Of a DNA stretch of 64,000 nt, positions 33,844 to 61,460 are shown one piece after another. The position numbers and the translations under genes were made by a program. The stretch is from Carcharhinus amblyrhynchos (Eukaryota). The notes beneath the pieces were generated by a model. That model worked only from the letters and a program-made list of their open reading frames with translations. It made no database searches and was not told the origin of the DNA. Location: assembly GCA_965287045.1 (NCBI GenBank), contig OZ336903.1, positions 1,178,001 through 1,242,000 of the forward strand, read 5' to 3'. How positions within the stretch are numbered: position 1 is the first letter of the stretch; the number at the start of each line of letters is the position of its first letter.

Positions 33844-33954
33844 TTTCTTCAAGCATTGACTCCTTCAATCAGATTGAGTATTACACCAGTCACAGTTTAG
33901 GAAACACAGATCCTGGACCAGAATATCCTGAAGTGAATTCTTCCTCAATTCAGG
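33844..33954 (+). pseudogene. Gene A cytoplasmic pseudoexon 2 (donor GT>GG)
   Basis: [30 protein letters not shown]; CAGG|ggaggt vs |gtaggt in B. Confidence 0.8.
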
Positions 33955-34476
33955 GGAGGTGGAAGTTCACATGCGACCATGTCCTTCCGAGCCTTCTCAC
34001 TCTGTAATATCTAAAATAGCGTTTGAAATCTCCAAACGTGTACTCCATGACGTGTACACCATGATGTGTGCACCATGATGTGTACACCATGGAATGGCAG
34101 GGCCAAATGCCTCAGATATTGCAGAATGATTTGAATTACAGAAACTTTGAGTCTCAAACAATATGTTCTCATTGTTCCAAGCAATGGAAATTAGATTTTT
34201 AAAACGAAGTTCCATTTATTTCCCCTTTCTTGGTTGTTATTTGTGGACTGGTTTGTGGGATCGGTGACACATTGGGAACGGTATACATTTGAACGAAAGT
34301 TGGAAAAAAGAAACAAAATTTCGCCCAATAATCTCTATGCTCCAATCCACTGGCCTCCATGCCACAACAGATCAAAGTCTCAGCCCCGGAAATACTGCGG
34401 CAACAGACATTAAACGATATGATTCTAATTGTCCTTCATTACTAATTAAGTTCAATTCAAATCCTTTCCCTCTCAG

Positions 34477-34606
34477 CTCCTGTTTTGACAGACTCTGACG
34501 ATGCTGAGAGTGAAACCATTGACTCTGATGGGGCACTTGCTGCTGAACCGGGACCCTGACGGTATCTTCACATTGACAAGTTCCAGCGGTGATCTGGACA
34601 CTCTGG
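34477..34606 (+). pseudogene. Gene A cytoplasmic pseudoexon 3 (Y>S in GYDDA, net 2-nt deletion)
   Basis: 130 nt vs 132 nt in gene B 46920-47051. Confidence 0.8.
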
Positions 34607-34667
34607 GTGAGATAATTCATTGATTGTTCCCTATCTTAGACAGTGGGTTGGGATCAGTACACAATAA

Positions 34668-36300: not shown

Positions 36301-37015
36301 TGATATATTGCTTTTCCTTTGACGTGGATATTGTTTCAGGGTGTATTCTATCCTCCTTCCAATGTGCCACCCCCTCCACCACCCCCCCCCCACCCCCCAC
36401 CCACCCTGCTATTTTCCATCTCCACCCTCATGGACTTCATTTCATCCATGCCATGATGCTCTCTCACAAAAGTGTGCATTTCAGTCCTTATTAACTGTGC
36501 TACCCCATCATACCCTCCTCTCCTGGCGTTGTGAAATGTTAAATGTATCTGAAAATTAATTAATTTCCCAGCTCTGATGTATTTGCAACCAAGTCTTCGC
36601 AAAAGCTATTCTCTCAAATCCAGATAGCTTGGTTTGCGCTGTCTGTTCGTCTATTTCGAACTCTATGTGCATTCAGGTATAAAGCGTTTAAAGATTCGTC
36701 TTTTGCTATTATTAATCATCATTTGTGCTGTGAGAATATTTCCCTTTTGTCGTTAATTATCTGAGCTCCCAATGCTGCATTTTACTGTTCATTATTATTG
36801 ATTCCAGTGCTTCTGTTTCCGATGTCACACATCCAGTTATCATTCCATTTTATCCCTTCCGAACTAAACACTCAAATAATCGCCAATGGACAACATTTTT
36901 GGCCCTGACCAGGTGCAACCCGTCCAGTTTGTTTTGATTTCTCCCCACCCCCAACCAATCCCTGAACTGGTGCCAAAGTCCCACCGATGTAAAACCCGTC
37001 ACCAGGTGCTCAGCT

Positions 37016-38610
37016 GATACAGAGTCACAGAGTCATAGGGGTTTTCAGCATGGAAACAGGCCCTTCAGCCGAACTTCTCCATGTTGCCCTATGTTTAAAA
37101 CCCCTAAGCTAATCCCACTTGCCCGCATTTGACCCATATCCCTTTGTACCCATTGTACCCGTGTAGCTCTGTAAACGTTTTTTTTAATGTAAAATTGTCC
37201 CCGCCTCGACCACTGCCTCTTGTTCCAGACACTCACCAGCCTCTGTGTGAAAAAAAAAGCCCCTCTGGACACCTTTGAATCTCGCCCCTCTCACCTTAAA
37301 CTTATGCTGTCTAATTTTAATCTCCCCTACCTTTAGGAAACAAGAAAATGACTATATACCTTGTCTATGCCCCTCATTATTCTATAGACTTCTATATTTC
37401 ACCCCTCAGCCTCCTACGTTCCAGAGAAAAAAAAGTTCGAGCCTACTCAGCCTCTCCTTAAAATTCAATCCATCAAGTCCCGATAGCATCCTAGTAAATA
37501 TTTTCTGCACTTTTTCTTTCTAGTTTAGGAACATCATTTCTATAATAGTTTGAGCAGAATTGCACACAGTATTCCAAGTGTGGCCTTACCAATGCCTTGT
37601 ACAGCTTCAACAAGACCTCCCACCTCCTGCATTCACCGTTCTGACCGATGAAACCAAGAATGCTAAAGGTCTTTTTCACCATTTTGGCCAACTGTGACTC
37701 CACGTTCAAAGAGTTGTGGACATGCACCTTTCGATCTTTTTGTTCTGCATCTCTCCCCAATGCCCTACCATTAACGGGCTAAGTCCTGCCTTGGTTCAAT
37801 CTATCAAAATGCATCACCACACATTTGGCCAAATTAAAGTCCATCTGCCATTCGTCACCCCACTGGTCTAATTTATCAAGATCCTGTTGCAATTGGAGAT
37901 TAGTTTCAACACTGTTCACTATGCCAGCAATCTTAGTGTCATCTGAAAATCTACTAACCATGTCCCTTATATTCTCATCCAAATCTTTCATATAAATGGC
38001 AAATAACAGTGGGTGCAGCGCTGATCACTGACACACTCTCTACAACCACCCTCCGGCTTCTTTCAATAAGCCATTTTTGTATCCGTTTTTATACTCCTAT
38101 AGAATCATAGAACCCTACAGTGCAGAAAGAGACCCTTCAGCCCATCGAGTCTGCACCGAACACAATCCAATCCACGCCCTACTCCCATATCCCTACCTAT
38201 TAGACCCACTAATCCCTCTAGTCTACTCATCCCTGGACACTAAAGGGCAATTTCTTAGCATGGCCAATCAACCTAACGCTCACATCTTTCGACTGTGGGA
38301 GGAAACCGGAGTACCCGGACAAAACCCACGCAGACACGAGGAGAATGTACAAACTCCACACAGACAGGGCCTGAGCCGGGAATCTAACCCAGGAAGCTGG
38401 AACTGTGAAGCAGCAGTGCTAACCAGTGTGCGACTGTGTCGCCCTCAACCTGGATCCCGTCAGACTTAATTTTATGCAACAACCTACCATGCCGTACATT
38501 GCCAAAGGCCTTGCTAAAGACCATGTCGACAACATCAACTGCACTGTCCTCATCTACCTTCTTAGTTACCCCTTCAAAAAACTGAATTTAATTTGTGAGA
38601 CATGATTTTC
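37016..38610 (-). mobile_element. Degenerate 5'-truncated CR1, present only in the gene A arm, with a nested SINE
   Basis: DLDENIRDMVSRFSDDTKI, LYKALVRPHLEYCVQF, FFTQRLVSVWN; (acagagtc)n tail. Confidence 0.92.
38099..38444 (-). mobile_element. HE1-like SINE nested in CR1
   Basis: atagaatcatagaaccctacagtgcag tail; gcagcagtgctaacca head. Confidence 0.93.
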
Positions 38611-39044
38611 CACTCACAAAACCACTCATATGTCCTGCTACATATAATTTGACAAACACCATGAGCTGTTAGTAAATCGGAAATCATTATATTTGAGAAA
38701 CACTTTCGAACTGACTTCCTAACTCCCCATATTCTGCCATTCTATTTTACCCATTTGATTAATACCGATGCAACTCATGACAAGTGGCTGCTGAGCGCCC
38801 CCTGCTGAATATCCGCTCTGAGAAACCCTTGAGCACCAGGGACGAAACATATCAACCTGAAGTTCCCTGGCATTTGAATCTCATATAAGGATTGCATTCC
38901 CACACTTTCTGTTCTATCTCGTGCAATGGAGCCATATATGGTGCTATGAATTCGGATGTTACTCCCATCACATGAGAAGCCATTACCCCAACAGGGTCGA
39001 AATCAGCCCACCATCAGTGGCACCTCCGCGCCAGGCCCCCAAGT

Positions 39045-39245
39045 ATTTTCCCTGCTCATCTGCCTAACACTAAGGGGCGATTTCGCATGGCCAATCAACC
39101 CAACCTGCACTTCATTGGATTGTGGGAGTGAACCGGAGCGCCCGGGGGAAACCCACGCAGACACGGAGAGAATATGCAAACTTCACACAATCAGCTCGGT
39201 ATTGAAAACGGGGCCCCTGATGCTGTGAGTCCGCAGTACAGCCCT
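39045..39245 (-). mobile_element. SINE fragment (paralog of 45328-45540)
   Basis: ggaaacccacgcagacacggagagaatatgcaaac. Confidence 0.85.
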
Positions 39246-41199
39246 TATTTTGTTTTTATTACTTTAAATCATCCTAGACCTCAGATTGTTTTTTAGGACG
39301 AAATAAACATTTAAATTAAATTGCATCATTGCTACAAGCTCAGCCCTTGTGACTCCCTGTTTCCCGAAGCTCCAGACAAGGCCGCACTGAAGAGCCTTCT
39401 GTTTTTGGCCCGAAATTCAAGGTTTCTGAAGCTGCATTAATCCTGATTTCTAATTAACTAGCTCCAGCTGAGAGGCTGGGAAAACCTTTTTCCAACCTGC
39501 GATTAAGATTCACCCAATCAAAAGTGCAATGTTTAATTGATTGCTAAAATAATGAACAAAGTAGATTGAAATTTAACATTTCCTGGATACTGTGAGGAAA
39601 TCCCTGTCATTTCTGATCCCCTTCATGGAGTCCCATGCTGTGACTGCTTTCTGAATTGATTGTTACCTCTGATTATTACTGCAGTCTCCCGCCCTCTTGT
39701 GTGGAATATACTCGCTCTGCTGTGCAGCCGATTAAAGAATATTGCCGCATTTTGGGTTTAGTTCCTGTCGTGAATGCACAGACTTGTATTAAACAAGCCC
39801 AAAGTTCACCAAAAAAAAGTCTAACGCCACTGTCGACCAGCATTGATCCAATCTGATCGGTTCCTTCCACGCCAACTAAGAATAAGAATGTTACCTGTGG
39901 CGCAAACACAGGAGTTTAACAACCGTTGGGCAGTGACCATTTGCTTCGTTTGCACGTATACATCATTAACCCTATTTTACGACATTTACCAATGGGAATG
40001 CCGCAGTTTAGGGATGTGACCTGTCCCGCGTGGTTTCTGCTTTGTGATTTCCTGCAGTATTTTCAGTGGTACATTACACTGAAGGTATCAGAGAGAATGT
40101 GCAGTGTGTATTTGATAGAAAGAAATTTCCAGTCGAACTGAAATATAACACAGGTATTTGTGAAGTGTTGACCTGATTGTGGAAATACTTGTCATTCTTA
40201 CATATTTTTTCTCTTTAACCGTTTCAGGTCACAGTCATCAACAAATACAGGATGAGACGTCCACGGACATACGGATCTCGTATTAGATGAATTAACATTT
40301 CCACAAATACCGCCATGTCGAATATGCTTTCATGCCAGATAAAAACGTTGTTGTTTTCGGATCAATAGTTTATAGTTTCATGTCGCATTTTGTAATTCTC
40401 ATTTCTGTCTTTGTTCTGCGTGAAAGAGTAAACGTTTTGTTCAATCAACAGTGGAAAACAACCTCGAATGTATATCGAGTCTATATTAAAGCTGTTACAT
40501 CGCATTGCATTGTGGAACGGAACCGTTATTATAATTCAAGATTTGATGTTTTTTTTGTCAAATGGATTTGAAGTTTATTTTGTAAACGCTTCCCTTCTTA
40601 TGCCACTAAATACAGATTAGAGCAGATAAATACATGGTTTGCTTCCATTTTCTTCATTTATTATATTGTAAATAGTCAGGGAGGCAGAGAGAGGACATTT
40701 ACCGGGGGGGTGGGGTTTGCAAAGATTGAATGGGGATTACTGGGAGGATTAGAGGGGACATTAGGAAGACGCTTTTCACTCAGAATGTAGTGGGTGTCTG
40801 CAATTCGTGTGTAAACTGCTGGTCCAGAAAGAAACTCCTCGGATCCGTCGATTGGCCCCCAGATCTGTCGCTGAAATGTTGTAACCTGTAAAGATCGGAC
40901 TGGGGACTGGGTCACTAGAAGGTGGGATTAGAATGGAATGCTAGGTTATATTTCTCGAGATGGTTCAGATGTGATGGGCTGAATGGCCTCTTTCTATGCC
41001 GTATCCTTTTCTCTGCTTTCTGTTAGCCCTCTCGCTGGGCCAGGTGGAGGAATGAGTTTTGTTTTAAATAAGAAACAAGAGGAAAGCTGCGGATATTGAA
41101 GCAACGCTGAGTTATTCTGATACCCATCCCCCCTCCAATAATCAAAGTGAGTGAGAAATCTCCCCGCCCGCCCCATGTTCAACCCAAATGCATTTCCCG

Positions 41200-43335: not shown

Positions 43336-45327
43336 ATTCCCTTTTCAACAACTTTATTGACAACGAGGCGTTGTGGGCCTGACACAGCGGAATACAGCAA
43401 GCTCACAGGGAGAAAAAAAAACGCGAGCGAAGTGGGCCGATATGTAAACATTTCCATCTTAATCTGCGCTCAGAAAATGGTGTCGGAATTGTCCAGTTTG
43501 ATCACCATTTCCAATATTTATGTATTTGTGAAATAACGGTCTTCAGCTAATTAATGTTTCTGTTTTAATGCCATAACGACCGAAGGATGGTTAGAATTGC
43601 CGGGCGATCGTACAGGGGCTTATCCGGAGGAAATGAAAACTAACGGATTACTGGATATTAAATCTTGTGGAATTAAAATGAAAAGGAGACATGGGAATCT
43701 GAGCAGCATCTTCATACCTCCCGCTACACAACGGTCTCCAGTGTTTAGGGTAGTGTTGGGATGCAATCGGGTTGTATTTAGTTGCTGGGGAAATGCAGTG
43801 GAGCACCGCCCCCACCCCCACACCCACCCACCCACCCACCCCACCTCCGCCCCCATGATGATCTAGAATATAACAAATGAAGAAAACGGAAACAATCCAT
43901 GTATTTATCCGCCGTAATCTTTATTTAATGGCATAAGAAGTGAAGCTTTTACAAAATGAACGTCAAATCTATTTGACCAAAAAAAAACTTGAATAAAATC
44001 TTGAATTATAATCACGGCTCCTTTCCACAATGCAATGCAATGTAATACCTTTAATATGGACAGTGCAATACTCGACACACTTTCCATGTTGTTTTTCATT
44101 ATTAATTGAACAAAACGTTGATTCTTTCATATAAAACAAGGAAAGAAATAATAATTCACAAAATACACAACATGAAATAATAACATATTGATACAAAAAC
44201 AACTGCGCATTTTTGTGAGATTAAAGCATATTAAACGTGGCGATATTTGTGGAAAACTTAATGGGCGTCCCCATTGATTTAAGTCACATGTCTGAGGACG
44301 TCACATCCTGAATTTTGAGATGGCTGTGACCTGAAACGGTAAAAGAAAAATGAGTGAGAATTACAACCATTTCCACAATTAATTCAACACTACACAAGTA
44401 ATTGTATTACATTCCAGTTCAACTGTCAGTTTCTTTCTATGAAATACACACTGCACATTCTCTGCGATACTTTCAATGTAATGTATCACTGAAAATACTG
44501 CAAGAAATCACAAAGCAGAAACCATGTGGGACAGGTCACACCCCGACACTGCGGCATTCCCATTGGAAAATGTCATAAAATACGGTTTAACATTATATTG
44601 TATATGTTTAAACTTCGGAAATGAATGGTCACTGCCCAAGGTCGCTGCTTATGCAAGGGGCACTGTTATTCTTGGCTGGCGTGGAAGGAACCGACAAGAT
44701 TGGATTAATACGGATTTACTGTATACTGTGGAGGGTAGACACATTTTTGGTGAACTTTGGGCTGAAAGTAGATTCCTTGTTTAATACAATTCTGTGCATT
44801 CGCGACAGGAACTAAACCCAAATGCCAATTATTCTTTGATCGGCTGCAGACCAGAGCGAGTATATTCCACACAAGAGGGCGGGAGACTGCAGTAATAATC
44901 AGAGGTGATAATCAATTCAGAAAGCAGTCACAGCATGGGATTCCATGAAGGAGATCAGAAATGACAGGGATTTCCTCACAGTATCCAGGAAATGCTAAAT
45001 TTCAATCTACTTTGTTCATTATTTTAGCAATCAATTAAACATTGCACTTTTGATTGGGTGAATTTTAATGGCAGGTTGGAAACAGGTTTTCCCAGCCTCT
45101 CAGCTGGAGCTAGTTAATTAGAAATCAGGATTAATGCAGCTTCAGAAGCCTTGAATGTCAGGCCCAAAAACAGAAGGATCTTCAGTGTGGCGTTGTCTGG
45201 AGCTTCGAGAAACAGGGAGTCACAAGGACTGAGTTTGAAGGAATGATGTAATTTAATTTGAAGATTTATTTCAATCTGAATATCAGTCTGAATCCAGATT
45301 GTTTTAAATTAATGAAAACAAAATAAG

Positions 45328-45848: not shown

Positions 45849-48800
45849 CTGAAGAGCCACGTTTCATGATTTGCATCGGTATTAATCAATTAAGTTAAAA
45901 AAAACTAGATGCAAAAGCGGATTATGGGGATAGGAAGTCAGTTTAAAATTATTACCTCAAATCCGGTGATTTCAGACTTACTAACAGCTTCTCCTATTGG
46001 GCAAAGTTAATGTTGCCGGAATACCAGCTGAGTACCTGGCTGGGAATCTGGTTCTCTGGTGACGGGTTTTAGATTCCTGGGTCGTTGGGAGAGGTTCAGG
46101 AGGTGTGGGGGCGGTGGGAGGGGGAGGGGGCGGTGGTGGTGGGGGATGAGATCAATACAAAGTGAACGTGTTGTACCTGGTTGGGACGGGGAATGCTGTC
46201 CTGTGGTGAGTGTTTGATAGTGTGGTTAGGAAGGGATAAAACAGAATGACAAGTTGATGGGAACACAAAGTGTGTGACATAGGAAAGAGAAACACGAGAA
46301 ACAATAATAAAGAGAGAACAGTAAGATGCAACATCGGAGCTCGGATAATCAACGACGAGAGGCAAATATAGTCACTGCACAAATACTGATTAATAATGGG
46401 AAAAGAAACATCGCTGCCACTATGCACATTGGTATTCGGTAGAATAAGAGGTTATCTCATTGAAACATAGGATTGTTATGGGGATCGACAGGATAAATGC
46501 TGAGAGGATGTTGTCACCCCTCCCCCCACCCACCCACACATTAGAGATTCTAGCACCAGACTGCGCAGAATGAGATGAAAGGGAACCAACTTGAGACTGA
46601 AATTTGAAGTGTTTTTTTTTCTTCTCTCAACATGTTGTGAATCTTTGGAACTCGTTGCCACAGAGAGCTGTGGAGGCAGAGTCCTTGTGCACATTTAAGG
46701 CTGTGATTGGTAGATCATTAATCAGTAAAGGAATGAAGGGATCCGGGGAAAGGGCAAGAGAGTCAATATGATGAATGTCTGATTAGTCACGATCCACTGA
46801 GGGGCGGACCAGGGTCGAGGGGCTGAACGGCCTAATCCTGTTCCAATTTCTTATCAACTTATTGTGTACTGATCACGGTCGACTGTTTAAGAAAAGGAAC
46901 AATCAAAGATTTATCTCACCCAGAGTGCTGAGATCACCGCTGGAAGTTGTCAAAGTGAAGATACCGTCAGGGTCCCGGTTCAGCAGCAAGTGCCCACTCT
47001 GAGGGTCAATGTTTTCAGTCTCAGCATCGTCATAGCCTGTCAAAGCAGGAGCTGAGAGGGAAATGTATTTGAATTGAAATTAATTAGTAAAAAAGGACAG
47101 TTAGAATGATCTCCTTAAATGTCTATTTCCACAGCAATTATGGAACAGATATTGATTTATTGTGGCTTGGAGACCAGTGAATTAGATTATGGGGAATCAC
47201 TGGACGAAATTGTGTTTTTTTTTTCAATTTTAGTTCAAATTTATACCGTTCTAATGAGCCACCGATCCCACAAACCAGTACACAATTCAGAGCCAAGAGA
47301 GGCTTCTGGGGAGATACATGGTAATATCAATTGTTCGGAACAATGATAAACATTGTTTCAGAATGAACGTTTCTGTAACTGAAACCATTCTGCAATGTCA
47401 GAGCTACTTGGCACTGTCATTTCATGGTGTACACGTCATGGTGTACACGTTTGGAGATTTCAGAAGCTATTTTAGATATTACAGAGTGAGAAGGCTTGGA
47501 TGGAAATGGTAGGATGTAAACTTCGACCTACCCTGAATAGAGGAGGAATCCACCTCAGGATATTCTGATCCAGGATCCGTGTCTCCCAAACTGTGACTGG
47601 TGTAATATTCAATCTGATTGAAGGAGTCAATGCTTGAAGAAACTGGCAAGCACAAAATAATTGGTTAGTTGGCAAATGTGTTACTGAGCCGTTGCGATGT
47701 TATCTTGGCGGACAGTGATTCAGAAAGTCAGAGCCGAGATCACAACAAGTTCATCGCCTCTGTGGAAACATCCTAACATTTGATCATGGCACCAATTTGG
47801 GATAACAGTCAGCAGACTGACTGCAGTGGTCCAAAGTGAAGAACTAGCACTACCTTACTGGACAATGGGTGTCACTCTGGCTTCGAACTGTCCAATCCCT
47901 TAGGGCAGATAATGTATCAGATATCAGAGAACCGGGAATTTGTAAAAAAAAACAATTACATCTGGGCCAGCTTTTACGATCCAGAATCACTTTTCCCTGT
48001 CGTTTTATTCCCCCTGTCTTGAACTGATATTTATTTGATGGCATTCTCCTTTCACTTTCTTCATCACAGCATCACTATTTGCTTTCCACCAGCAGTCTGA
48101 CATTACACCCTTTAATAATGATTCTGTGAAAAGCTGCAATTCTGCTTCCGCTAGAATTTTTATATCTTTGAAAATGCATGGATGGAAATGTTCCAATGAG
48201 TTTAATGTTGTTATTTCGTTTTTGATTCTACCTGTTGATACCATTCCCATTCACATCTTGTGAAGTCAAGAACTTGAGTTTTATCTCTGGTATAAACTGA
48301 AACAAACAATTGATTAATATTTATGTAATTTCAGTATTGGGATTGTTGGTAAAAACTAAACCTCGAAAATACCTGAAGTAAGTTCTGAATTGGCCATTTT
48401 ATTTCTGTTCGATTGAATATTTTTCCCCTTTAATTAACACGCCATTATTCACTAATATAGTAGCCCTCGTTTGTCGCCTTAACAAATTACATCATCTTTT
48501 TGTTTCCTGATTCTACATCTCGTTTGGCTCAGTTCACGGCTCCACTGAGTCTCACACACTTCCACGACTGATTTTGCTTGCTTGCATTGGCGATTTGTCT
48601 TTACACTTAATGGGTTTCATTTTTTCTTTTTTATTTGGTTGTTCTTGTTTTTTTTATATTTTCATTCAGTCCAAAAATGGATTAAAATACCCATTTTAGA
48701 AAAATAAAACTGTCGTACTCCAGATATTTTCCCAAATACTAATCTATCCTGTAATTAGCCGCTGAGTGTGCATTAATGCATTGAATTCATTTACACAATC

Positions 48801-51800
48801 AGTCACATGTTTTAAATATTATTATTTAGATCAGACTTTGATGTGTGCAAGGTGCAAACCAGTTGGAAATTGGAAACAGCTACTTTGTTCTTCTTAAACA
48901 GAAGGGAAAATTATCCTTGAACAATAATGAACATTGGTAATCTGATCAGGACACAAATCCTCTGAAGATAAAACGGTCATTTAAAATGTCTCCTTTCTAC
49001 ATGAGGACGGTGAGGTTAATGCTTCCCTTGAGCGTGGCTAAAGTGGGTAAAGAATAAGCGGCATTTTTCCATGTAGCTTGGGTTAAAAAAACACAAACCT
49101 GAAGCACGGTACTGAGTGTCTTGCCTGGAGGGAGGAATGTCATCTATTTCTTCATAAATGGCTTGGTATATAAAAGGACGTGGATCCCAACCTCCCGCAA
49201 CAGGTTCTGTTGGAGGAAAATAGGGACAATTAGCATATTGATACATTCTGTTCCTGTATATCTGTCCATGATTTTTATTGATTTTTATCTCCCCCTATGA
49301 CGAGGTTAGATTCAAACTAGGATCTCACAGAATTTATTTTGTTTCTCTGCATCATGAATCCAGTGTTGATGCCACTGCCTCCATCACAAGGAGCACTGAG
49401 GCATTTAGAGACCAGTGAAAGTCAGCGCATAAGATTGGAATCAAGAAAATTCGGTGCGAGTTCAGACTCTTGCAGTAGTTTTGTTTATCTGTTCAAAACT
49501 AGTGGTGCAAAAGGCAGACATTCATCAGATTCCATGGCCATGTTTTAACATGGAGCAGGTCAGTAACCTGTTACCAGAGGAGCCCAACTCCATACCAACC
49601 ATGGCCGGACAGTAATACCTCCCGCTCTCACCGCTTGGGATTGTTGCCTTGGAAGGGTTTTACAGGAAGTGCTGACACTTTGTTCCTATAAAGTCTTGGG
49701 ATTGAACCTGGTGCGTTTGTCTCAGAGATCAGGATGCTATTCACCGGCATCGATCTTGTAATATTAGTTGGACAGTTTTGCTGGGATGCAGTATTGGAAT
49801 TGATTCTTGTGGAAAATCATACGATCACGTCTCAAAATGGGTCGATTACTGTTCGAGAACTCGGCACGCCCAAACACTCAGTGTTAGTTTGCAACCAATT
49901 GTAAGTGGAAACAAAATGTCAGTTGTTAAATAGTTAATGGACACATTTCAACATAGGAATTAGAAGGAACATAAGAATTAACAGCGAAATTGGGCAATTC
50001 AGCCATTTGAGCCCGTTCCACCATTCTATACGATCATCGCCGATCATATCCAGCTCGATTTGAGCTTTATCCAGCTTTCATTGAGTCAGATAATTGTTTA
50101 TTTCTTGAATCTGCTGACTGATTCTGTCTCCCCTCACTCTGGGCCGTCTTTCCACAAGATCACAACCATCTGAGAGAATGTATCCCTCACTTCAGCTTTG
50201 GAACTCCTTCCTCTCACTCTAAATCTATGAGTCTTTGTTGTAGACTATCCAACAAAGAGCAATATCGGCTCAACATCCACCTCATCAATCTCTTTATCAT
50301 TTTGTAAACCTCAATCAGAACCCCCCGAATTTTTTTGAGCTCCAGCAAGTACAAGCTCAACTTATTCAAATGTTCTTCATACATTGACCCTTTCATTCCT
50401 GGAATCAATCTGATGAGCATCGTCTGAACTGCCTCCAGTATCAGCACATCCTTCATCATGTCTGGAGACTAAATATGGACACGATTCTCTTGGTGCAGTC
50501 TCACGCAGGCCTTATCCAGAATTAACAACATTGCTTTACAAGTAAATTCCTGTCCATTTGCAGTAAATGCCAAAATTCAAATTGGCGTTCTTATAAAATG
50601 ATGCACTTGTAAATTCACGTTCTGTCATTCAAGCACACGGAGACCCAAATCCCTCCGCATTGACAGACTGTGAATATTCTTCCCAATGAAACAATCATTT
50701 ACCCTTTTCATTGTTCTTTTTTTCTGCAAAAATGAATGTCCACACAAATATCCATATCACTCTCCTTTTGTCACATTCTGGCCCATTGTCCTAAGCTGTC
50801 AATACTCATCTGTAATCTCTATAATCTCATCAGAACCAGCTTTCCCACTCATATTTTGATCATCCGCAAAGTTTGCAATGTTTCACTCTGGCCTCAATCG
50901 CAGGTCAGTGAACTGTTGAAAACTGAACGTTGCATCTTGCCTCATATTAAATTTTGCTCGCTATCCAAAGAAGGGCCTTTTTATCCCTATCCTGTGCTTT
51001 CTTTCACTCAACCAATCCTCTCTCCATGACAATATTCTGGACCCAACCTTTGGGATCTAACACTCTTGCCTAATGCCTTGAAGCATCCAGATATGCCACA
51101 TCCACATGATCCCTATCATTCATCTCGCTGTTTAAATCCTCAAAAAAAACTCGAACAAGATTGTCAAACACAACTTATGCTTCATAAAATCGTGCTGACT
51201 GTGGCGAATTCCGCTTTGTTTTCCATTGATCAGTTATCTCCTGACAATGACAGACTGCAAGGACTTCCCAACATAGAGGTCAAAATAAGGGGTTTACATT
51301 TTGCCACTTTTTGCTTCTCTGTTTTTTTTTGAATAAATTTGTCTTGTCACCGTGTTTCCAATCCAGAGATATCTTTCCGAAATCAAGGAAAAATTGGAAT
51401 AATATAACTAATGCACCCACTATCTCTGCTGACACGTCCTTTAATACGAAAGGGTGCAGGCCATCGAAGTTCAATTTGTTCCATTCAAGTTTAAAATGAT
51501 TGCAACAAAACAAAAATTCTATTCCGTACCTCATGCTTTGGTGGATGGTGTAGGAATATGAATGTAAATTACTCCCTCATTGAAATGTAATATTTTGCTA
51601 TTGCTCATGTGACTCGAAATAAATTAAAGACCAATGATCGGTTAATTTGTTTTTGAAATGTACCCAAGTACATTTGCAAAACGGCAGAGAAGCCCCTTAT
51701 GATGTATGAAGCAACATCCATGACTCAGCGTGGGTTCAGGGATATGATTCGGGCCTTACCTTTTATTGATGATCTTCTCTGCATTACTACCAAAAGGGCG

Positions 51801-54800
51801 ATTAACTCACAGATCAACAGGACGCCGAGTGATATGCAGATGACCAGAGGGATGGAGGTGCTTTCATCTTTATATCCTTGATGAAAGATTCAAGGAAGTT
51901 TGTGAGATAAAGTGCCCACAATGTTTTAAATACTTACATGATTATCAAACACTCAGACTGTCGGTAGAAATTGACAAAAAAAAGGCAAAACAAATGTGTG
52001 GCAACTATTAATTGTAATGTAAAATGAGCCGTAATAGAGATTGATATTTATTCCTGAGACATACCGGAAGGTGTGGGCAGAACAGTTGGAGATAATTCCC
52101 GACCTGATGGAGATATGGTGAAAGGGAGACAATTATTTACATTGTTGGTCAGAAAGACATTTGAAAACATTAATTGATTTCAGCAAAAATGGGCGAACAG
52201 CGTCACACAGTCCCAAACCACACCGCTCAATGGGACACTTACCGGAACAAATCACACTGGCATCTTCCTTGTGATCACAGTCAGACTGAACTAATGCTGA
52301 AGGACAGTCAAACAGAAAGGATTCGCTTCCGGTGCACTTCACCTCATCCAGCCAGATAGTACCGTTACCCTGCCCAAAAGCGGCCCCTCCTGTGGCCTCG
52401 AGAGCAGAGCCACAGCCCAGCTGTCTGCAGACAACACTGGCATCGTTCATATCCCAGGAATCATCACACACCGTGCCCCAGGCTCTATTACACCATATCT
52501 CCACTCTCCCGGAGCAGCTCTTGGTACCTCCAGACAAGCGCAAACTTTGTCCTGAATTTGTTAAAGATAATAAATCAATTATTAACCCTGATGTAGCACA
52601 AGAGAGGAATACAATCAGATCGCTGGTTTATTAAAGTTGGCAAAACACCTGATTCTCTCTTGCAGCTGTTCACAGTTTCCTGTTCTTGCTTCGGTGTCCC
52701 TCGCTCTGTTGATAAGGCAAACATGTTGACTCCATGAGCGACATCAATATTTCAAATCACACCTGTAAGTAGAATGATTCATTGTGTTACCTGAACAAAC
52801 GATGCCTGCATCGTCCCAATGGGTACAGTTGTGTTGACCCCACGGGTCTGCCTGGCACTGCCGAAGATTCAACTCCTGTGAAAGACACTCGATATTATCC
52901 AGCCAAATAGGCCCGGATCCCACTCCGAATCGGCGAGAGCCATAGTCAATGAAAACGGTTGGGCCACAGTTAGCCTGTTTACAGATTACAGTAGCATCTT
53001 GCCCACCCAGGTCTTCTGAGCACACTGTTCCCCACGTCTCATTGTAGAAAACTTCCACTCTGCCTTCACAGCGATGCTTTCCGCTCACCAAACGCACCTC
53101 TTTGTGCTCTGTCAAACAAATGATATATACCCAGATGATATCTTCTTTAACCAGAGTGTCTAATATCTGTTGTGCCAGTTGAGGTCACCGTTTGAGAGAT
53201 ATATTTCGCAAAGATCACAAAAAAAGTTGAATTCGAACGATATAATCAAGAATATGCGACATTGAGATTTAATGGGAAGCTTTGGGTGATGGACTCAATC
53301 AACTCTGGCCAAATCCTCCCTCATGTCATTGTAGTTACCTTTATTTAACTGTAATCTCGCTCTATCAGATTCCAACTTCTCCCTCTCAAACTCTCGGGTA
53401 AATTCTGTCATGTTGTGGTCACTGCTCCCAAAGCGCTCCTTAAGTTCCCTAATCAAATCTGCCTCATTGCACATCACCAAATCCAAAATTACCTCCTCCC
53501 CCGCTCTGTCACAAACTGGACCAGAAAGCCCTTTCTTAGACAGTCCACAAACTCCTTTTTTCTGGGATTCACTACCGAACTGATTTCCCCACTTGGACTA
53601 TGGGAAGTATATGAGGGATATAGAAAAAGAAGGGAACGCGATGAAATGGACGGAACAAAGACTTCAGTGACAGTTATGTCCAGAATAAGAAAGTGAGTCT
53701 TTGTGCCAAATAGCCTTCCAAAGTGTGTGTGTTTTTAACGTAATTTAGGAACTCATCTTAACATAGAACATCGAACACCACAGCACAAACAGGCCCTTCA
53801 GCCCACAAGTTGTGCCGATCACATCTTATGTATGAAGCTTCGGTTATAAGTGCAGAAAGTGGGACAGTTACCAGAGCACATGATCTTCACATCTTCTTTA
53901 TGACTACAGTCGTGTTTACCCCACAATGCATGGGGACATTCCCAGAGAAATGATTCACTCCCGGAGCATTCCAGTGAATTCAACCAAATTGGCTGTGTGT
54001 CAGGTCCAGCCAATGCAGGAAGAGGAAGCCGCAATGCATGTCCACAACCCAGATCTTTGCAAACTACGTCAGCGTCTGACACATCCCAGGAATCATCACA
54101 AACTGAGCCCCAGGTCCTGTTGTGATAAATTTCCAAACGGCCCGCACATCGGCTTCCACTGCCAGACAGCCTTAACTGCATGTGTTCTAATAGAAACAAA
54201 ATGGGAGCGTCATGTTATACTTCCAATGCATACTCATCTCATTGTTAAATTCAAACTATTACATCATGTGAAGTAAATTAAAGCCTGTATTTAACTGCTT
54301 TTCACAGAGAGATTAATCTCCGCTCAAGAAAAAAAAATACTCTTACATGAAGTTACAATTTTAGACACTACGGATCATCCAGATATTCGCATTTCTGACA
54401 ATAAACAGTCCCATGGATTTCGGATTGGAACTGACCTGTTCATTGCTGCATGGTTTGCTTTACCAGAAATTGTGCCACTGTGGTAATTAATTGTTCCACA
54501 CAGAATGGTTTCAGCAAACATGTTTTTTCTTTTCACTACTACGTCATTTTGCCATGCATATTTCATCAGGTATCTCGCTAGTTCGCCCATTTATATCGGA
54601 TCAAATAAGAAATACTGCAAATAGTCTGGCAGCGACTTGACCTTTCAGACAGTGACCTTTCCTACGAATTTGCTGCTAATCTGCTCATCACTTCCTTGTT
54701 TTCTCAAAAAATGCAGATTTCAAAACTCTCCTGATGGCCGCCGCTCCAAAACACATGGATGCAATCAAAATGTTTCTAAATGAACCGCGCACATTCCAAC

Positions 54801-57800
54801 TCATCAGCAGCGACCAGCGCACGTGCAAACCGGCACCCACACCCCACTGCCTCCCCAATCCCCTCCCCTTCCCCCTTGCTGACCAACAGCATCACTAACA
54901 CTGGCAATTTATGAAATGTCACAATATCTCATTTGCTGTGTTGATGTAACCCTCATTTGTGGCTAATAAGGAAACTATTTGATTTACACTGGCTGTTCTT
55001 CCGTCAACATAAATTAGCTTCAATATATCATGGTCATGTTCAACGGCACTTATACACTCCATGACTGCCCACCGCTTCACCATAGTTACCCCGGCCACCC
55101 GACACCAGCATGAGAACCAGCGTTGATAGATTTAATTCACTGAAGAGTTTGGATTTCCGTCACATCTGACACTTCACACAGCAAGCCTTTCCTCATACTT
55201 AGTTAACGCTCATAATTTTGGGGACTGGGACACAAGATTGGAATTTTCTTCTCATACATGGCCCCCTCTCTCCCTTCGCTATGCTGTTGTAACCCACCCA
55301 ACACTGATCAGCATATTATTTCCCACTGCCGAAACTGTCTTTGTTTGTGTTGGTCTCAATTTACTGAGGGAAATTACTTTGAGATTTATAAAGTTGTTTT
55401 TTTTTATTACATTTTTGTTGTTATAATATTCCAAACTACGTGTTTTTTTTCTTTCCCCGTGACGTTCTGTTCAGCATCCTGGCGCCAGTGTCAAATATCT
55501 CAGCTTTATGCTCCCGAAAAAGGAGTGAAGTCTCTACGCAGTTGACCAAGATTACAGTTTTCCCTTTATGTTTCCGGAAAAGTGACCTGTTTATTCACCT
55601 GAGCACAGAACCCCTACACCGATGCTGTCACTGCGATGCGGGTTCAATGTGAATGTGCTGCAGTTCCAGAGATGCGATTCGTTTCCTTCACACTGGACAT
55701 CATTCACCCACACAGGCCCTTCACCCTCTCCGTACTTTGAATTGTTATAAGCGGTTACCGCTTCGCCGCAGCCCAGCTGTCTACAGGCCACATTAGCGTC
55801 ATTCAGATCCCAGAGGCTGTCCTGCACTCTGCCCCAGCTGTGGTTGTAGTAAATCTCCACTCGCCCATCACACCGACTTCCCCCATTCATCAATCTCAGT
55901 GGCCAGTTTTCATCTAGGCGAAGAAAGGCATGGAGAACAGTGGTTACACTGCAGCAAATTAAATCAAATTAATATTATCTTTCACCAGAGCAGCTCCCCC
56001 GGAGCAGAGGTGAAGGATGTGATGAGAGGCTGCTTAGCACAGTCAGACAGGAGGCTGAACAGCCAGCGTGGCTGCTCTGAATCTGAAGCAAATACATTAA
56101 TAGACAGAGTGATAATATATGTTTATGGAATTCGAGGATGGACCAGCAATTCGGCGATCTAATGTAGAAATATCCTCTTCAATCCCAGCGCCATGTGTTT
56201 CCATTACCTTGATTTAGGGACTCACCCGTGCAGATGACACTGACGTCATTTCCATGTGAGCAGGTAAACTCTTCCACGGATGAAACCGGACACTCCCACA
56301 ACCGGGACTCGTTCCCGCGGCAGTTGAGGTTCCCCTTCCATATTGTCCCATTTCCCTTTCCAAAGGCTGCACCTCTCAGGATTTTCTCTACCACTCCACA
56401 CTGAAGATGCTCACAGACCACACTGGCGTCTTCTAAATCAAAGTAAAGATCACAGAGCGTCCCCAAGTGTTCTCCATGCGGCACTTCCACCCGGCCGGAG
56501 CACCTGTCCTTTCCACCAACCAATCTCAGCTCATGCTTTCCTGTTTCAGGGACAAACACAGACACAAATAATTTATACATCGAAATTAAAAGAAAGGCAT
56601 GCCAGCATTTTTTTTTGCGTAAAGGTGAGAGCTCTGATAGCATGCGCATCTACAATCATTCCCCACTATTCACAACCAATCATTTAGAACGAATTAACAT
56701 CATATATGATGCTTTTAAGAAGGTGCTTCAACCCAAAGCGAGCAGTCCATCCTGAAGGCAAAAGTTATTTTGCTATTGGCAGAATATAGTGCCTATAGAG
56801 AAGGACCATAATATGCTTGAAATAAACTGCAGTGTTTAAGCATTGCATTATGAGGCAACTATAAAACAATATCCTCTGGAGCAATAACCTGAGCCTAAAA
56901 TGGTAGATGCGCTTCCAAAATTAGACAGCATCTCGCACCAGGAAATTCAGCCACTAAATGACGTTCGAAAAGCTATTGCACTATTTTGGGAATAATGCGC
57001 ATTATTGACGCGTTTTCCATGCTTTGAAATCTCCAACATACATTTGTCCAATTTTACATGTTTCACTAGAAGTAAAACATGAACTTGTATTGCTGTTACT
57101 GAACTCATCCAATTATTTTGTTTGATGAAAGATAATTGAAATGCAAAACCCTTCATTTATTCTGCTGTGCCAATATTCTCTTTAGATGCAAACAGATTTA
57201 CAGTCTGCTACAGACTATGCAGTGGGATCACGGCATGGGAGGCAACACACGACTACCTGACAGGTCCACAAAGAATGTCATGTCAAATGTTTCAGAGAAA
57301 TATATGCCTGGCCTGGGCACTAAATCAACAACAATAATTTGCTAATTTGAGAACGTTAATAAAAATGTAAACATTTGCTATTTGTAAAAAGTGAGCATCC
57401 TTTGAAATATGAAGACCTGGTTGGACAAGTCCATGTTAGAGAGAGGCAGATCTGCAATCTCTCCTTTGTTTAAATATTAAAAACATTTTAAATTAATTTT
57501 CACAAGTCTGTACTCACCGGAACAGATCACACTGACATCGTTCCTGTGGGTGCACCTGGACCGATTTACAGGAACAAAGGTGCAGTCCATCAGGCTTGTC
57601 TCGCTCCCTTTACATTCAAATCTATCGTTCCATATAAGTCCAGTGCCCTCTCCAAAATAAGCCCCACTTCTAATGGAAACGGCGACTCCACACTGCAGCT
57701 CAGCACAGATCACTCTGGCATCATTCCAATCCAAGTCACGGTCACACACTGTGCTTGAAGCTGTATGGCTATGGATCTCCAATCTGCCGGAACATGGAAA

Positions 57801-60800
57801 AGCCCCGGATACTAGTTTTGAAAATCTGTGGGCTGAAAAACAACAGATCACAAAACACTAATTATTGTCAAAACGTATTCACATCCGCTTAACTAGATTC
57901 TACTATTATTAGTTCTGAATCGGGTTCCCCTGAGCTTCCCATTAATTTAAAGATTCAGGGGAATTACAGAGGTAAAAACATGGGGTGCGACGTGGATTCG
58001 ATGGCCTGCCCGGGAGACTCGACGGGCTGAATCCCCTTCTTCTGCATTAAGAAATTCTATAATTAAAGATGTTTCATCAAGTTCAATAGGTGTGAATTAT
58101 TATTCTCTCCCGAAGCCGTGTTCATTCTTAGAGCGATTCCTCTGGAACACTCTTACCCATCCGGACTTACATTGAACCGACTGCTGGTTTATCTCAATAA
58201 ATTCTGAGTATTCCTGCTCCCTACCGCCTGTTGATGGGAAATTCACAATGGCCAACAGGCGGACCTGAATCAATATCATTTCGAATTATTTACCCAGGAC
58301 TTTCTAACTGATAGACATCAAACGGAATTCTATTTTTGATTTTCGGCGCTGAAGCGTGTTGAGAATGAACGTTCTGAAATTACTTCAACCAGAAATGAAA
58401 CTATGTATCCCAGAATGTCTAAATAGTGATTAGCAAACAACACTCAAGCATTATTGAGGGTCTCTGGGCACAGGTAAAATGTGAAGGCCAGGTAAAAAAA
58501 ACGTTATCAAAAGCCCTCCTAGAATTTTAGCTTTTCTATTTTGACGGCGAGAGCATGAAGGGGGAGAGCTTCTGTTTCAAGTTTCAAGAACATTGTACAG
58601 TCCATATCTGGAATGGGAATGAACAATAACTGCATCACTGAAATGATCTCCTGTTCTGGAAAGCAGTCCAGTGGAAGTCTCCCAGGCTGCTGGTTACTGT
58701 GACGAGAACCCATCTCCTTCTATCAGTTTACACTGTCTGAGATCTGTCTGAAGCTGCAGCGACGTTAAATGATAAAACAACTCATCTCCCTTCATTTTAT
58801 TCAGAATAAAGTATCAACTGCCGAACATTTGAATGGAACTCTCTCCCAATGACATTTCTGATTTCTCCCGCTGATAAACGCTAAAGGTAAACTTGTCCGA
58901 AAAAAAACACGTGTGGAAACCATGTAGGAACAGTTGTTATTCATCAGATTCGGGAAGTGAGAGGGAGATAAGTTTCCAAATAGTATCAAACATTTTAGGG
59001 CGAGGATTTACATGGCAGCTATTAAAAAGACACGCCTGGGGAGACAGGGGATATCCAGCCAGTCCCCTCTCACACAGAATCAGAAAATGTTGGAACAATT
59101 CAGCAGCTGTGGGAGAATTAGTGGCGAGGGAAGAATAGAGGGATGTTTCCAGTCCGCAGGACTCTCCTCCAGACCCTTCTCATCCTCACTCCGCTCTTGG
59201 AACACCTTCAATCTGCCCACTGATTGCTGCTCTGAAAGTAGCCGCAGTGACTGGATAAGCGCTCTATGGCCTCCGCAATCAATAGTCAGTAAATGTCAAA
59301 CACATGGACCGAGACACCCGGATTTAATTCAGAGACAGCCGCCAATTCTGACCGAGTGCCGAATGATCCGGACTCCGCATGAATGCACTTCCGCATGAAT
59401 GCACTTCCGTACACAACCAGTCCATCAAAGCATGCCTCAAATTTTGACTCTGCCCAGGCAAGACCGGGACAGAATAGTCCGCCCGGGACTCTTTCTCGCT
59501 GTCCTTCCAGGTCTGTCCGCCCCCTCCCCCACCGTGGTTGCTGACAGGTCCGTGTCTGTCTCCAGGCGTGTGGTTTTGTCGGTTGAGGCATTGGGGGAGG
59601 GGTGGTGATGGAGAACTCGAAGGGTTGGGGGATCGGGATGCCTCCGACCGTATATCTGGGGTGCAACCACATTTTCATTTGAGGGGAAAATTTCTGGAGT
59701 GCGACGCAAAAAAAAAGGCATTTAGAATCGGGCGATTTGGAGTTACGTTAAAATAGTAGGATAAGCCAAACGCTGCGGACAGATGAAGATAAACTGTTGC
59801 TCAGCAGAAGCCTGATTGTTGTCCAGGATTTGCTCTGTGTGGCCCTGGAATGATTCATTATTTGTTGAATGGTGACCAGAACTGAACAGTGAGGAACCAG
59901 GAGCGAACAACTCCTCTCCTGAACACAGCTAACAGCAAGAGCTCAGCTCAAGGACACAGCGGGTCTGTGCACGGTTGTGGTCATTGTTAATCACTCTCAT
60001 TGCTGTTGCTTTATTATAAACTAAAATCCTGGTGTTCATGTAACCACAACTCGATTTACTGAATATTAAAATTATTCGCCAGTCTCTTTACGACTGTGTA
60101 TAGTCTCCGAATACTTTATCCGCCCTTTCCCGGAGAGTAGATTGGGGACTTTTTTTTTACCTGAGCAAATCACACCGGCATCATTGGAGTGCGAATAGCC
60201 ATAGTGACTCCATGGATCTGAGGGACATTCCCGCAGGGCTGTCTCGGTCCCTTCGCACTGAACATCATACGTCACAATGGGTCCGGCTCCTCCCCCAAAG
60301 TGAGCCCCGCCTGGTGCAGAGAGCGCGGTCCCGCAGCCCAGCTCCCCACACACAACATCGGCGTCCCGCTGGTCCCAGTCACTATCAAACACAGTGCCCC
60401 ACTGTCCCCTGTAGTGAATCTCCACTCTCCCAGCGCACCGACTCTGCCCATTCGCCAGTCTCAGCTTCACCGCCTCTGTAAAATACAGAAATAAACCAAC
60501 AGTTATTGGCCAGCTGATGCAGCAGGTCAGATAGGAGTCAAGTCAAGCATCCAGTGTGTTAAGGATTTCAACAAACCCTGGGATAATATGAGATAAGAAC
60601 AACGAACAAAAAAATTTACAGCACAGGAACAGGCCCTTCCGCCCTCTTCGCCTGTAGCGACCTTACTGCCCGACTGAACTAAAAACCCCTACCGTTCTGG
60701 GGACCATATTCCTCTATTCCCATCCGATTCCTGTACTTGTCAAAACTCCCCTTAAAAGTCACTACTGTATCCGCTTCCACTCCCTCCCCCTGAGACATTG

Positions 60801-61460
60801 CAAGTGGAAGCGGGAATATGGATTGACAGTGGGAAACAGCCGCAAACTAGTTGGAAGTTGGAAGCATCATTCTGCTGCGTCAGGCAGGAGTGTGGATGGG
60901 AGCTTACTTGATTCCACCCACAAAACTCAGGACTGTTATGGTCCGGGATCCACCTGGACTAATATAGTGGAATCCCTATCCTAGTATGGATTCGAATCTG
61001 CCACCAGGGTCGAACCAGGTGGTTCACCCTGCTGCAACTGTCTGAATTGGACTGTCAGGTAGTCTCCAGCCCTCCCCGGGGCTATTGGCTGCGGCGAGTT
61101 TACGGCGGAACCCGTATATACCGGTGGTCAAACGGCTCGAATATTGCACTGCATTATGGTAACTAGAGAAGTAAAAATTTATTTCCAAACAGCAGTGGGA
61201 AATCTTTGCCTCTCGCCCTGCTCCTCGGCGATCTAATTTCTAAATTAGGGAGCAGAACTTAAACATTTACGTGAAAACATTGCAAGAACATTTTCATTCA
61301 CAACTGACAGGCAGACATTGAACCGAACCATTGAATACAAAGATACTGAAATTGTCTCAGGGATTTATCATTCAGTTGGATGGATTAGTGCAGTGAAATA
61401 TCAGATATGAACTTGGAGGGCGATTACCTGATGGATCAGCCTGGCTGTTCCCTGGTCTGC
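45805..61460 (-). CDS. Gene B: apparently intact CD163/WC1/SCART-like type I membrane receptor, 7 SRCR + TM + Tyr-rich tail (exon 1 outside window; last exon uncertain)
   Basis: Exons 61428-61460, 60161-60475, 57518-57832, 56226-56540, 55599-55913, 53872-54186, 52791-53108, 52649-52705, 52243-52551, 52065-52103, 51760-51876, 49099-49206, 47532-47642, 46920-47051 are all open, AG/GT, phase 1-1. Confidence 0.88.
46920..47051 (-). CDS. Gene B cytoplasmic exon 3 (A)[43 protein letters not shown]
   Basis: ctctcag/gtgaga, 132 nt. Confidence 0.85.
47532..47642 (-). CDS. Gene B cytoplasmic exon 2 (V)[36 protein letters not shown]
   Basis: gccag/gtaggt, 111 nt. Confidence 0.85.
49099..49206 (-). CDS. 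Gene B cytoplasmic exon 1 (E)[35 protein letters not shown]
   Basis: ccaacag/gtttgt, 108 nt. Confidence 0.88.
49950..51540 (-). mobile_element. Old degenerate CR1 (paralog of 27830-30880, without the nested insertions)
   Basis: GPDGLHP-like, [19 protein letters not shown] fragments. Confidence 0.85.
51760..51876 (-). CDS. Gene B transmembrane exon [39 protein letters not shown]
   Basis: caag/gtaagg, 117 nt. Confidence 0.9.
52065..52103 (-). CDS. Gene B linker-2 exon (G)[12 protein letters not shown]
   Basis: atcag/gtatgt, 39 nt. Confidence 0.85.
52243..52551 (-). CDS. Gene B SRCR domain 7 (9 Cys)
   Basis: [30 protein letters not shown]...DASVICS, 309 nt. Confidence 0.95.
52649..52705 (-). 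CDS. Gene B linker-1 exon (E)[18 protein letters not shown]
   Basis: aacag/gtgttt, 57 nt. Confidence 0.8.
52791..53108 (-). CDS. Gene B SRCR domain 6
   Basis: [26 protein letters not shown], 318 nt. Confidence 0.95.
53292..53590 (-). mobile_element. CR1 ORF2 endonuclease-region fragment; separate CR1 3'-tail fragment at 53759-53825
   Basis: [11 protein letters not shown]...FGSSDHNM; aacatagaacatcgaacaccacagcacaaacaggccc. Confidence 0.8.
53872..54186 (-). CDS. Gene B SRCR domain 5
   Basis: [30 protein letters not shown], 315 nt. Confidence 0.95.
55599..55913 (-). CDS. Gene B SRCR domain 4 (lacks C2/C7)
   Basis: 315 nt, near-identical to 22180-22494. Confidence 0.95.
56226..56540 (-). CDS. 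Gene B SRCR domain 3
   Basis: [27 protein letters not shown], 315 nt. Confidence 0.95.
57518..57832 (-). CDS. Gene B SRCR domain 2
   Basis: [18 protein letters not shown]...DVSVICS, 315 nt. Confidence 0.95.
60161..60475 (-). CDS. Gene B SRCR domain 1 (lacks C2/C7)
   Basis: 315 nt, tacag/gtaaaa. Confidence 0.95.
60593..60790 (-). mobile_element. Short CR1 3' end, specific to gene B, candidate TSD TGAGA
   Basis: Empty site at ~17580 in gene A; acagcacaggaacaggcccttc 3'UTR. Confidence 0.8.
61428..61460 (-). CDS. Gene B exon 2 (C)[10 protein letters not shown]
   Basis: tttcag/gtaatc, 33 nt. Confidence 0.85.

What the first reader, a model, noticed from the sequence alone, without database searches (positions are those of the whole stretch)
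46920..49206. Gene B tail has WC1-style and mixed activating/inhibitory tyrosine motifs
Seen: 7 tyrosines over three exons, including back-to-back [14 protein letters not shown] (fits the ITIM pattern SxYxxV) and GYDDA; there is no canonically spaced ITAM. Established: pYEEI is the optimal Src-family SH2 ligand, and WC1 tails carry YEEL and GYDD motifs, unlike the short endocytic CD163 tail. Inference: a lymphocyte co-receptor rather than a haptoglobin-haemoglobin scavenger.
Basis: partly seen in the sequence, partly recalled or inferred. Interest (0 to 1): 0.7.

Follow-up and report, generated by a model that had tools for sequence, protein, structure and literature searches.

The report
Shark WC1-like receptor family signalling tail

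Summary
The seven tyrosines and named motifs are real. They lie in gene B, an intact 16-exon, 963-aa receptor with seven SRCR domains; a fourth, tyrosine-free tail exon (44330-44283) was missed. Gene B is one of 27 copies in a tandem cluster (16 without a lesion), with 7 more in a second cluster. YEEI, EYY and YDD are kept in 16, 16 and 15 of the 16 intact copies and across other sharks, and YEE[IL]/YDD match teleost and ruminant WC1-type tails. The ITIM-like SEYPEV is weak: the loose pattern appears in 32% of shuffled tails, 11 of 16 intact copies, and 5 of 27 other shark proteins. The G of GYDD is private to gene B. The first SRCR domain has two hypervariable loops, as in WC1. Verdict: a new shark member of the WC1/CD163c branch, likely an activating pattern-recognition co-receptor, not a haemoglobin scavenger; lymphocyte expression and binding partners are untested. 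The scan reported a paralog of this family earlier in the same genome. The family expansion, not the mixed motifs, is the main interest.

The parts
49099..49206 (-). Tail exon T1 (108 nt, phase 1): YQAI (49168-49157), YEEI (49156-49145) and a third tyrosine (49111-49109) found only in gene B
47532..47642 (-). Tail exon T2 (111 nt): conserved EYYTS (47610-47596) and labile ITIM-like SEYPEV (47568-47551)
46920..47051 (-). Tail exon T3 (132 nt): GYDDA (47037-47023; DYDD[AV] in relatives) and a dileucine-like SGHLLL (46998-46981)
44283..44330 (-).
   Evidence: acceptor and stop conserved in paralogs; present in Mustelus protein models
51760..51876 (-). Transmembrane exon with start of the tail
52065..52103 (-). 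Short Pro/Ser/Thr stalk exon
52243..52551 (-). SRCR 7, membrane-proximal d' type
   Evidence: groups with CD163 SRCR9 and WC1 d', support 98/91
52649..52705 (-). Interdomain exon
52791..53108 (-). SRCR 6, e type
   Evidence: groups with teleost and ruminant e domains, 99/96
53872..54186 (-). SRCR 5, d-like by position and score
   Evidence: groups with teleost counterparts 96/85
55599..55913 (-). SRCR 4, six-cysteine domain in the position of CD163c domain n (identity with n not tested)
56226..56540 (-). SRCR 3, b/c clade
   Evidence: best human CD163 match SRCR5, 108 bits vs next 92; weakly with c domains in the tree, 86/70
57518..57832 (-). SRCR 2, b/c clade; absent from 3 of 16 intact paralogs
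60161..60475 (-). SRCR 1, WC1 a-like: lacks cysteines 2 and 7, two hypervariable loops among paralogs
   Evidence: Pfam SRCR E 7e-32
61428..61460 (-). Small exon 2; the signal-peptide exon 1 lies about 2.2 kb beyond the window end (locus L045)
14536..40272 (+). Gene A, an inverted paralog: exons 1 to SRCR 6 intact; T1 deleted; lesions from the interdomain exon onward

Best explanation
Gene B encodes an intact seven-SRCR type I membrane receptor of the WC1/CD163c branch, one of a tandemly expanded shark family, and it likely works as an activating pattern-recognition co-receptor. Shown: gene structure, family size, motif conservation, variable first domain. Inferred by analogy with bovine WC1: the variable first domain binds microbial or stress ligands; clustering beside an antigen receptor lets a Src-family kinase phosphorylate YEEI, which docks SH2 proteins and boosts the receptor signal without an ITAM of its own. 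Inferred from motif class: the [DE]YDD[VA] site recruits an SLP-76/BLNK-type SH2 domain, and SGHLLL mediates regulated endocytosis. The first tyrosine and the SEYPEV tyrosine are optional, copy-specific sites. The expressing cell is probably a T-cell subset.
For: Intact 963-aa frame, 16 exons, GT-AG. YEEI 16 of 16, YY 16 of 16, YDD 15 of 16 intact copies; in other sharks YEEI in all 19 parsed proteins where the exon was found, YY 25 of 27, YDD 22 of 27 (27 of 30 proteins parsed, isoforms included). AVYEE[IL] and YDD[AV] occur in teleost, sheep and serow tails. WC1 needs phosphorylation of YEEL and the motif is shared by CD163c/WC1 but not CD163A (PMC2906472). ExYDDV/DxYDDV bind SLP-76 and BLNK SH2 (PMC2211848); CD6 DDYDDI binds SLP-76 (PMC5440646). 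Domains 6 and 7 are e and d'. SRCR 1: dN/dS 1.26 (0.83-1.9) versus 0.31-0.50 for the six other SRCRs; loops pN 0.32 vs pS 0.20, rest pN 0.06; 12 sites with 5 or more states versus 0-4 elsewhere; one side of a branch with sheep WC1 a, 78/88. WC1 diversity sits in two variable regions of domain 1 (PMC3511184, PMC5949365). In cod a CD163-like gene marks a T-cell cluster with putative TCR gamma/delta (PMC9276791).
Against: No expression, phosphorylation or binding data for any shark copy. Grouping of SRCR 1 with WC1 a is not starred, and grouping with CD163A h-i-j-k is not rejected (p-AU 0.074); by raw score SRCR 1 is closer to generic eight-cysteine domains (134 bits) than to sheep a (107). Tail similarity to non-shark tails is weak (best 8.6 bits; 2 of the 10 WC1-type or teleost tails with the motif scored no better than shuffles). 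Gene B itself has G and A around YDD, a poorer fit to the SLP-76 consensus than DYDDV. The EYYTS site, the most conserved in sharks, has no counterpart tested in WC1. The dN/dS interval for SRCR 1 includes 1, and paralog pairs are not independent.
Confidence: 0.6

Rival explanations
1. Same receptor and Src-dependent tail, but expressed mainly on myeloid cells or granulocytes as a signalling and endocytic pattern-recognition receptor, not as a lymphocyte co-receptor.
For: No expression data were obtained; YEEI and YDD-type sites can be read by kinases and SLP-76-family adaptors in myeloid cells too (established knowledge, recalled). A dileucine-like motif is present.
Against: The relatives with this tail motif that have been studied are enriched in gamma-delta T cells (cattle WC1 and CD163c, PMC2906472; cod, PMC9276791).
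Confidence: 0.22
2. A paired-receptor family: copies with SxYxxV (or VxYxxI at the first tyrosine) recruit SHP-1/2 or SHIP and inhibit, copies without activate, so gene B has a truly mixed tail.
For: SEYPEV fits the consensus [SIVL]xYxx[IVL] (PMC7666139). Two tyrosines toggle among intact copies (first Y 10 of 16, SEYPEV Y 12 of 16) and none of 16 lacks both. 5 of 16 carry VxYxxI. Tyrosine at the SEY site recurs in Heterodontus (2 proteins) and a full SEYPEV in Rhincodon, so it is not confined to one lineage. Paired signalling was proposed for bovine WC1 tails (PMC2681482).
Against: Pattern arises in 32% of shuffles; full pattern in 5 of 27 other shark proteins and 2 of 10 named species, 0 of 7 second-cluster copies. 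Neighbouring residues of the site vary as much, as in a relaxed linker. The no-double-loss pattern is not significant (Fisher p 0.23). All intact copies keep YEEI, so there is no clean split into two tail classes.
Confidence: 0.13
3. A CD163A-like haptoglobin-haemoglobin clearance receptor.
For: Human CD163 is the best solved-structure match; the d-e-d' end is colinear; NCBI names several shark relatives 'M130-like'.
Against: CD163A's h-i-j-k domains form their own clade (99/89) without any gene B domain; tail exon T1 finds no CD163 chain at E up to 10; a multi-copy family with a hypervariable first domain does not fit one conserved ligand. A 2018 paper's title states that Hp-CD163 recycling arose in mammals (seen only as a reference).
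Confidence: 0.03

Closest known systems
WC1 of ruminants and pigs (a-[b-c-d-e-d]-[b-c-d-e-d'])
   Same: Tandem multigene family; six-cysteine first domain with two variable loops; e-d' next to the membrane; multi-exon tail with [AI/V]YEE[IL]D and downstream YDD[AV].
   Different: Seven domains (6 to 9 or more among copies, with 1-3 first-type domains); an extra six-cysteine fourth domain; shark-specific YQAI and EYYTS tyrosines; tail otherwise unalignable; orthology of domain a only weakly supported.
CD163c-alpha/SCART and the chicken WC1/CD163c hybrids (a...c-n-d-e-d')
   Same: Y-(Q/E)-(D/C/E)-(I/L) tail motif; a domain order that by position reads a-b-c-n-d-e-d', as described for chicken hybrids (PMC2906472).
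   Different: No SCART or chicken hybrid sequence was in hand, so domains m, l, n were not compared; bovine CD163c tail is coded by two exons, gene B's by five including the TM exon.
CD163A (M130)
   Same: b/c, d, e, d' domains; best PDB match.
   Different: No h-i-j-k clade domain; unrelated tail; single-copy in eutherians versus 27+7 copies here.
CD6
   Same: Group B SRCR co-receptor with ITAM-less multi-tyrosine tail; C-terminal acidic YDDI site binds SLP-76, like the shark [DE]YDD[VAI].
   Different: Three SRCRs; gene B has no YxN GADS site; CD6 ranks far below CD163 as a match. The CD6 tail was not aligned.

Membership tests
CD163/WC1 family (group B SRCR, type I membrane) | Single-exon SRCR domains ending in d-e-d' before one TM helix | tested here: met
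WC1/CD163c branch | Membrane-proximal tail motif Y-(Q/E)-(D/C/E)-(I/L) | tested here: met
   YEEI, 16 of 16 intact copies; definition from PMC2906472
WC1 proper | N-terminal domain of the a clade | tested here: inconclusive
   one clade with sheep a at 78/88; alternative not rejected; only one distinct a sequence in hand
WC1 proper | Multigene array with diversity concentrated in two loops of domain 1 | tested here: met
WC1 proper | Domain order a-b-c-d-e-d' | tested here: not met
   an extra six-cysteine domain (SRCR 4) lies between the b/c pair and d
WC1 proper | [DE]xxxL[LIM] endocytic motif in the tail | tested here: not met
   absent in gene B, which has SGHLLL; DGH[MLF]LL in Heterodontus and DGHILL/DSHILL in the second cluster do fit; motif definition PMC8427877
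WC1 proper | Expression on gamma-delta T cells; tyrosine-dependent potentiation of TCR signal | not testable with these tools
   no RNA holder listed
CD163c-alpha/SCART | Domains m, l and n | not tested
   no SCART sequence was retrieved
CD163A | N-terminal h-i-j-k domains (k diagnostic) | tested here: not met
   h-i-j-k clade 99/89 holds no gene B domain
ITIM-bearing inhibitory receptor | [SIVL]xYxx[IVL] pattern present | tested here: met
   SEYPEV, but expected in 32% of shuffles
ITIM-bearing inhibitory receptor | Motif conserved in paralogs and orthologs | tested here: not met
   11 of 16 intact copies, 0 of 7 second-cluster copies, 5 of 27 other shark proteins
ITIM-bearing inhibitory receptor | Phosphatase recruitment and inhibition | not testable with these tools
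   needs pull-down and cell assay
ITAM receptor | YxxL/I-x(6-8)-YxxL/I | tested here: not met

The most novel reading that the evidence does not exclude
Sharks carry a WC1-like germline array of gamma-delta T-cell co-receptors, as old as jawed vertebrates and expanded to about two dozen genes, in which hypervariable first domains are paired with tails whose optional tyrosines (first Y, SEY site, skippable YEEI exon) act as activating/inhibitory switches, plus secreted decoy copies.
Probability: 0.15. Interest if true: 0.8.

Novelty: new member of a known kind. Interest (0 to 1): 0.45.

Why it matters
WC1-type arrays are described for ruminants, pigs, chicken and platypus (PMC2906472). A shark array with the same tail motif and a variable first domain places the design near the root of jawed vertebrates and gives candidate surface markers for shark T-cell subsets. 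The conservation ranking of the seven tyrosines says which to mutate first. Four searches of the held library listed no paper on shark WC1/CD163c genes, but most subscription journals are not held and NCBI already names some shark relatives 'antigen WC1.1-like'.

Tried and rejected
RNA support: no RNA holder listed; the two listed runs cover introns and exons alike and showed no exon-joining contigs among the 15 joints shown of 57, so they say nothing on splicing. Protein search with SRCR 7 returned long repeat proteins first and no close shark copy among the 120 listed of 4921; it did supply ruminant and teleost tails. Pfam: no family for the three tail exons. PDB: nothing meaningful for T1 or TM. 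A conserved block in the last intron (44580-44400) was tested as an extra exon and rejected: stops or frame breaks in several copies and absent from Mustelus models. My first idea that the second cluster lacks T1 was wrong: a diverged T1 with YAEI is present in 7 of 7. My early reading that the SEY tyrosine is confined to one lineage was wrong. dN/dS of T2 (1.34, interval 0.5-5.1) is uninformative. Three of 15 hits were set aside from the table or unparsed along with two bacterial-looking chance hits (P0147, P0150). Chen 2014 and Redmond 2018 could not be read. No structure or complex prediction was run: the tail is likely disordered and the tool cannot model phosphotyrosine.
Full report
Observation. 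A six-frame motif scan found [14 protein letters not shown] and GYDD on the minus strand at 49168, 49156, 47568 and 47037. They fall in three phase-1 exons with AG/GT ends, 49206-49099, 47642-47532 and 47051-46920, holding 3, 3 and 1 tyrosines. Alignment of the downstream DNA of 25 copies showed a conserved acceptor and stop defining a fourth tail exon at 44330-44283. With a Mustelus protein as guide the whole gene was mapped: 16 exons, 963 codons, no internal stop, seven SRCR domains, interdomain and stalk exons, one TM exon, a 139-residue tail with 7 tyrosines; exon 1 lies 2.2 kb beyond the window. NCBI models of Mustelus join the same tail exons. No RNA evidence was obtained. The closeness to Mustelus (83-86% in T2) indicates a ground shark (inference).

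Chance. In 20,000 shuffles of the tail, YEE[IL] appeared in 0.3%, back-to-back YxxI-YxxI in 0.8%, YDD in 8% and the loose ITIM pattern in 32%; gene B has no strict ITIM, ITAM, ITSM or YxN site.

Family. Searches of the window's own genome with T1, T2 and TM gave 25 of 25, 34 of 35 and 32 of 32 candidates as matches: 27 T2 copies within about 1.9 Mb of contig C34 and 7 more at 8.5-8.8 Mb; counts are lower bounds. Of 27 first-cluster models built from fetched DNA, 16 show no lesion (two with exon 1 outside the DNA fetched), 7 have lesions and 4 are tail fragments. Some copies are nearly identical, so assembly duplication cannot be excluded.

Which tyrosines matter. Among the 16 intact copies YEEI is kept in 16, YY in 16, YDD in 15, the first tyrosine in 10 (otherwise D, H or N), the SEY tyrosine in 12 (otherwise C or L; full SxYxxV in 11), the third T1 tyrosine and the G of GYDD in 1 each. 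Parsimony on local DNA trees gives 0 steps for the YEEI tyrosine and both YY tyrosines, 4 for the first tyrosine and 5 for the SEY tyrosine. The second cluster has [DN]QG[IV]YAEI, EYYTS, SEN and DYDYV in 7 of 7. Searches with T2 and the tail gave 30 shark-type proteins with the tail; 27 were parsed, from 10 named shark species, isoforms included. YEEI was in all 19 where T1 was found, the first tyrosine in 18 of those 19, YY in 25 of 27, YDD in 22 of 27 (14 YDDV, 7 YDDA, 1 YDDI; none with G before it). A tyrosine at the SEY site was in 7 of 27, the full pattern in 5 (four Mustelus, one Rhincodon). This recurrence outside the Mustelus lineage counts against calling it a one-off, but the usual state is N. 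No ray or chimaera protein was identified.

Relation to known tails. Teleost CD163-like, sheep WC1 and serow WC1-type tails among the proteins carry [AV][VI]YEE[IL] and one or more YDD[AVI]. A profile from 9 shark tails ranked such tails in the top 8 of 66 non-shark tails, four of them above all 200 of their shuffles, though scores were low (2.5-8.6 bits) and two teleost tails with the motif did not exceed their shuffles. PMC2906472 (abstract, passages, sections 8 and 9 read) defines Y-(Q/E)-(D/C/E)-(I/L) as shared by WC1 and CD163c-alpha, states that WC1 needs YEEL phosphorylation, and that CD163A tails (YREM; short and long isoforms) are unrelated. That pYEEI is the optimal Src SH2 ligand is recalled, not checked here. 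PMC8427877 (passages) describes WC1's dileucine motif; gene B has only SGHLLL.

Ectodomain. In a tree of 67 SRCR domains SRCR 7 groups with d' (98/91), SRCR 6 with e (99/96), SRCR 2 and 3 fall in the b/c clade (94/94), and CD163A h-i-j-k form a clade without gene B domains. SRCR 1 lacks cysteines 2 and 7 like sheep WC1 a and groups with it at 78/88, but a grouping with h-i-j-k is not rejected (p-AU 0.074). It is the only SRCR with dN/dS near or above 1; its variation sits in two loops, with length changes from 104 to 110 residues, as described for WC1 domain 1 (PMC3511184, PMC5949365, PMC2681482, passages; their figures and supplements were not seen). By position the order reads a-b-c-n-d-e-d', like chicken WC1/CD163c hybrids; n was not tested.

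Mechanism. Shown: structure, expansion, conservation pattern. Inferred: ligand binding by the variable domain, co-clustering with an antigen receptor, Src-family phosphorylation of YEEI, SH2 docking there and at YDD, regulated endocytosis. Cell type is inferred from cattle and from cod, where a CD163-like gene marks a putative gamma-delta cluster (PMC9276791, passages). The inhibitory reading rests on a loose pattern (PMC7666139 consensus, passage) at a labile site and is rated 0.13.

Novelty. A new member of a known receptor kind. Searches listed no paper on shark WC1/CD163c genes in the held library, which lacks most subscription journals. Interest is moderate and comes from the shark expansion with a WC1-like variable domain and a ranked set of tail tyrosines.

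Noticed in passing
window 14536-40272 (+), gene A: Exons 1 to SRCR 6 are intact; all lesions (broken donor and acceptor, repeat insertion at about 26776-27110, stop in TM exon, T1 deleted, T3 frameshift) lie downstream. Could be a secreted six-domain form rather than a dead copy; other broken copies also have most lesions from SRCR 5 onward.
   Followed up: partly
window 47610-47596 (-): [13 protein letters not shown] is the most conserved tail block in sharks and has no tested counterpart in WC1; teleost tails have EYYDD repeats. Binding partner unknown.
   Followed up: partly
P0123, P0124, P0127, P0128, P0130, P0132 (Heterodontus): NCBI isoforms skip T1 (YEEI exon) or T3 (YDD exon); all tail exons are phase 1, so motifs can be dropped in frame.
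   Followed up: partly
L038-L044 (C34, 8.5-8.8 Mb): Second cluster of 7 genes with two or three first-type domains, a shortened following domain, YAEI instead of YEEI and DYDYV instead of DYDD.
   Followed up: partly
window 44580-44400 (-): Intronic block conserved at 84-94% per 30-base bin among 25 copies, more than the intron around it; not an exon by frame test; possibly regulatory.
   Followed up: partly
first-cluster models g013, g017, g022, g026, g027, g028, g029: Two or three tandem copies of the variable first domain, and SRCR 2 missing in four models: domain number varies among copies.
   Followed up: no
window 4457-4504 (-): Signal-peptide exon of a third copy that runs out of the window's left end (model g032, intact).
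   Followed up: yes
window 1560-2324, 29567-30430, 61507-62163: Open frames resembling CR1/L2-type LINE reverse-transcriptase ends (recognised from recall).
   Followed up: no
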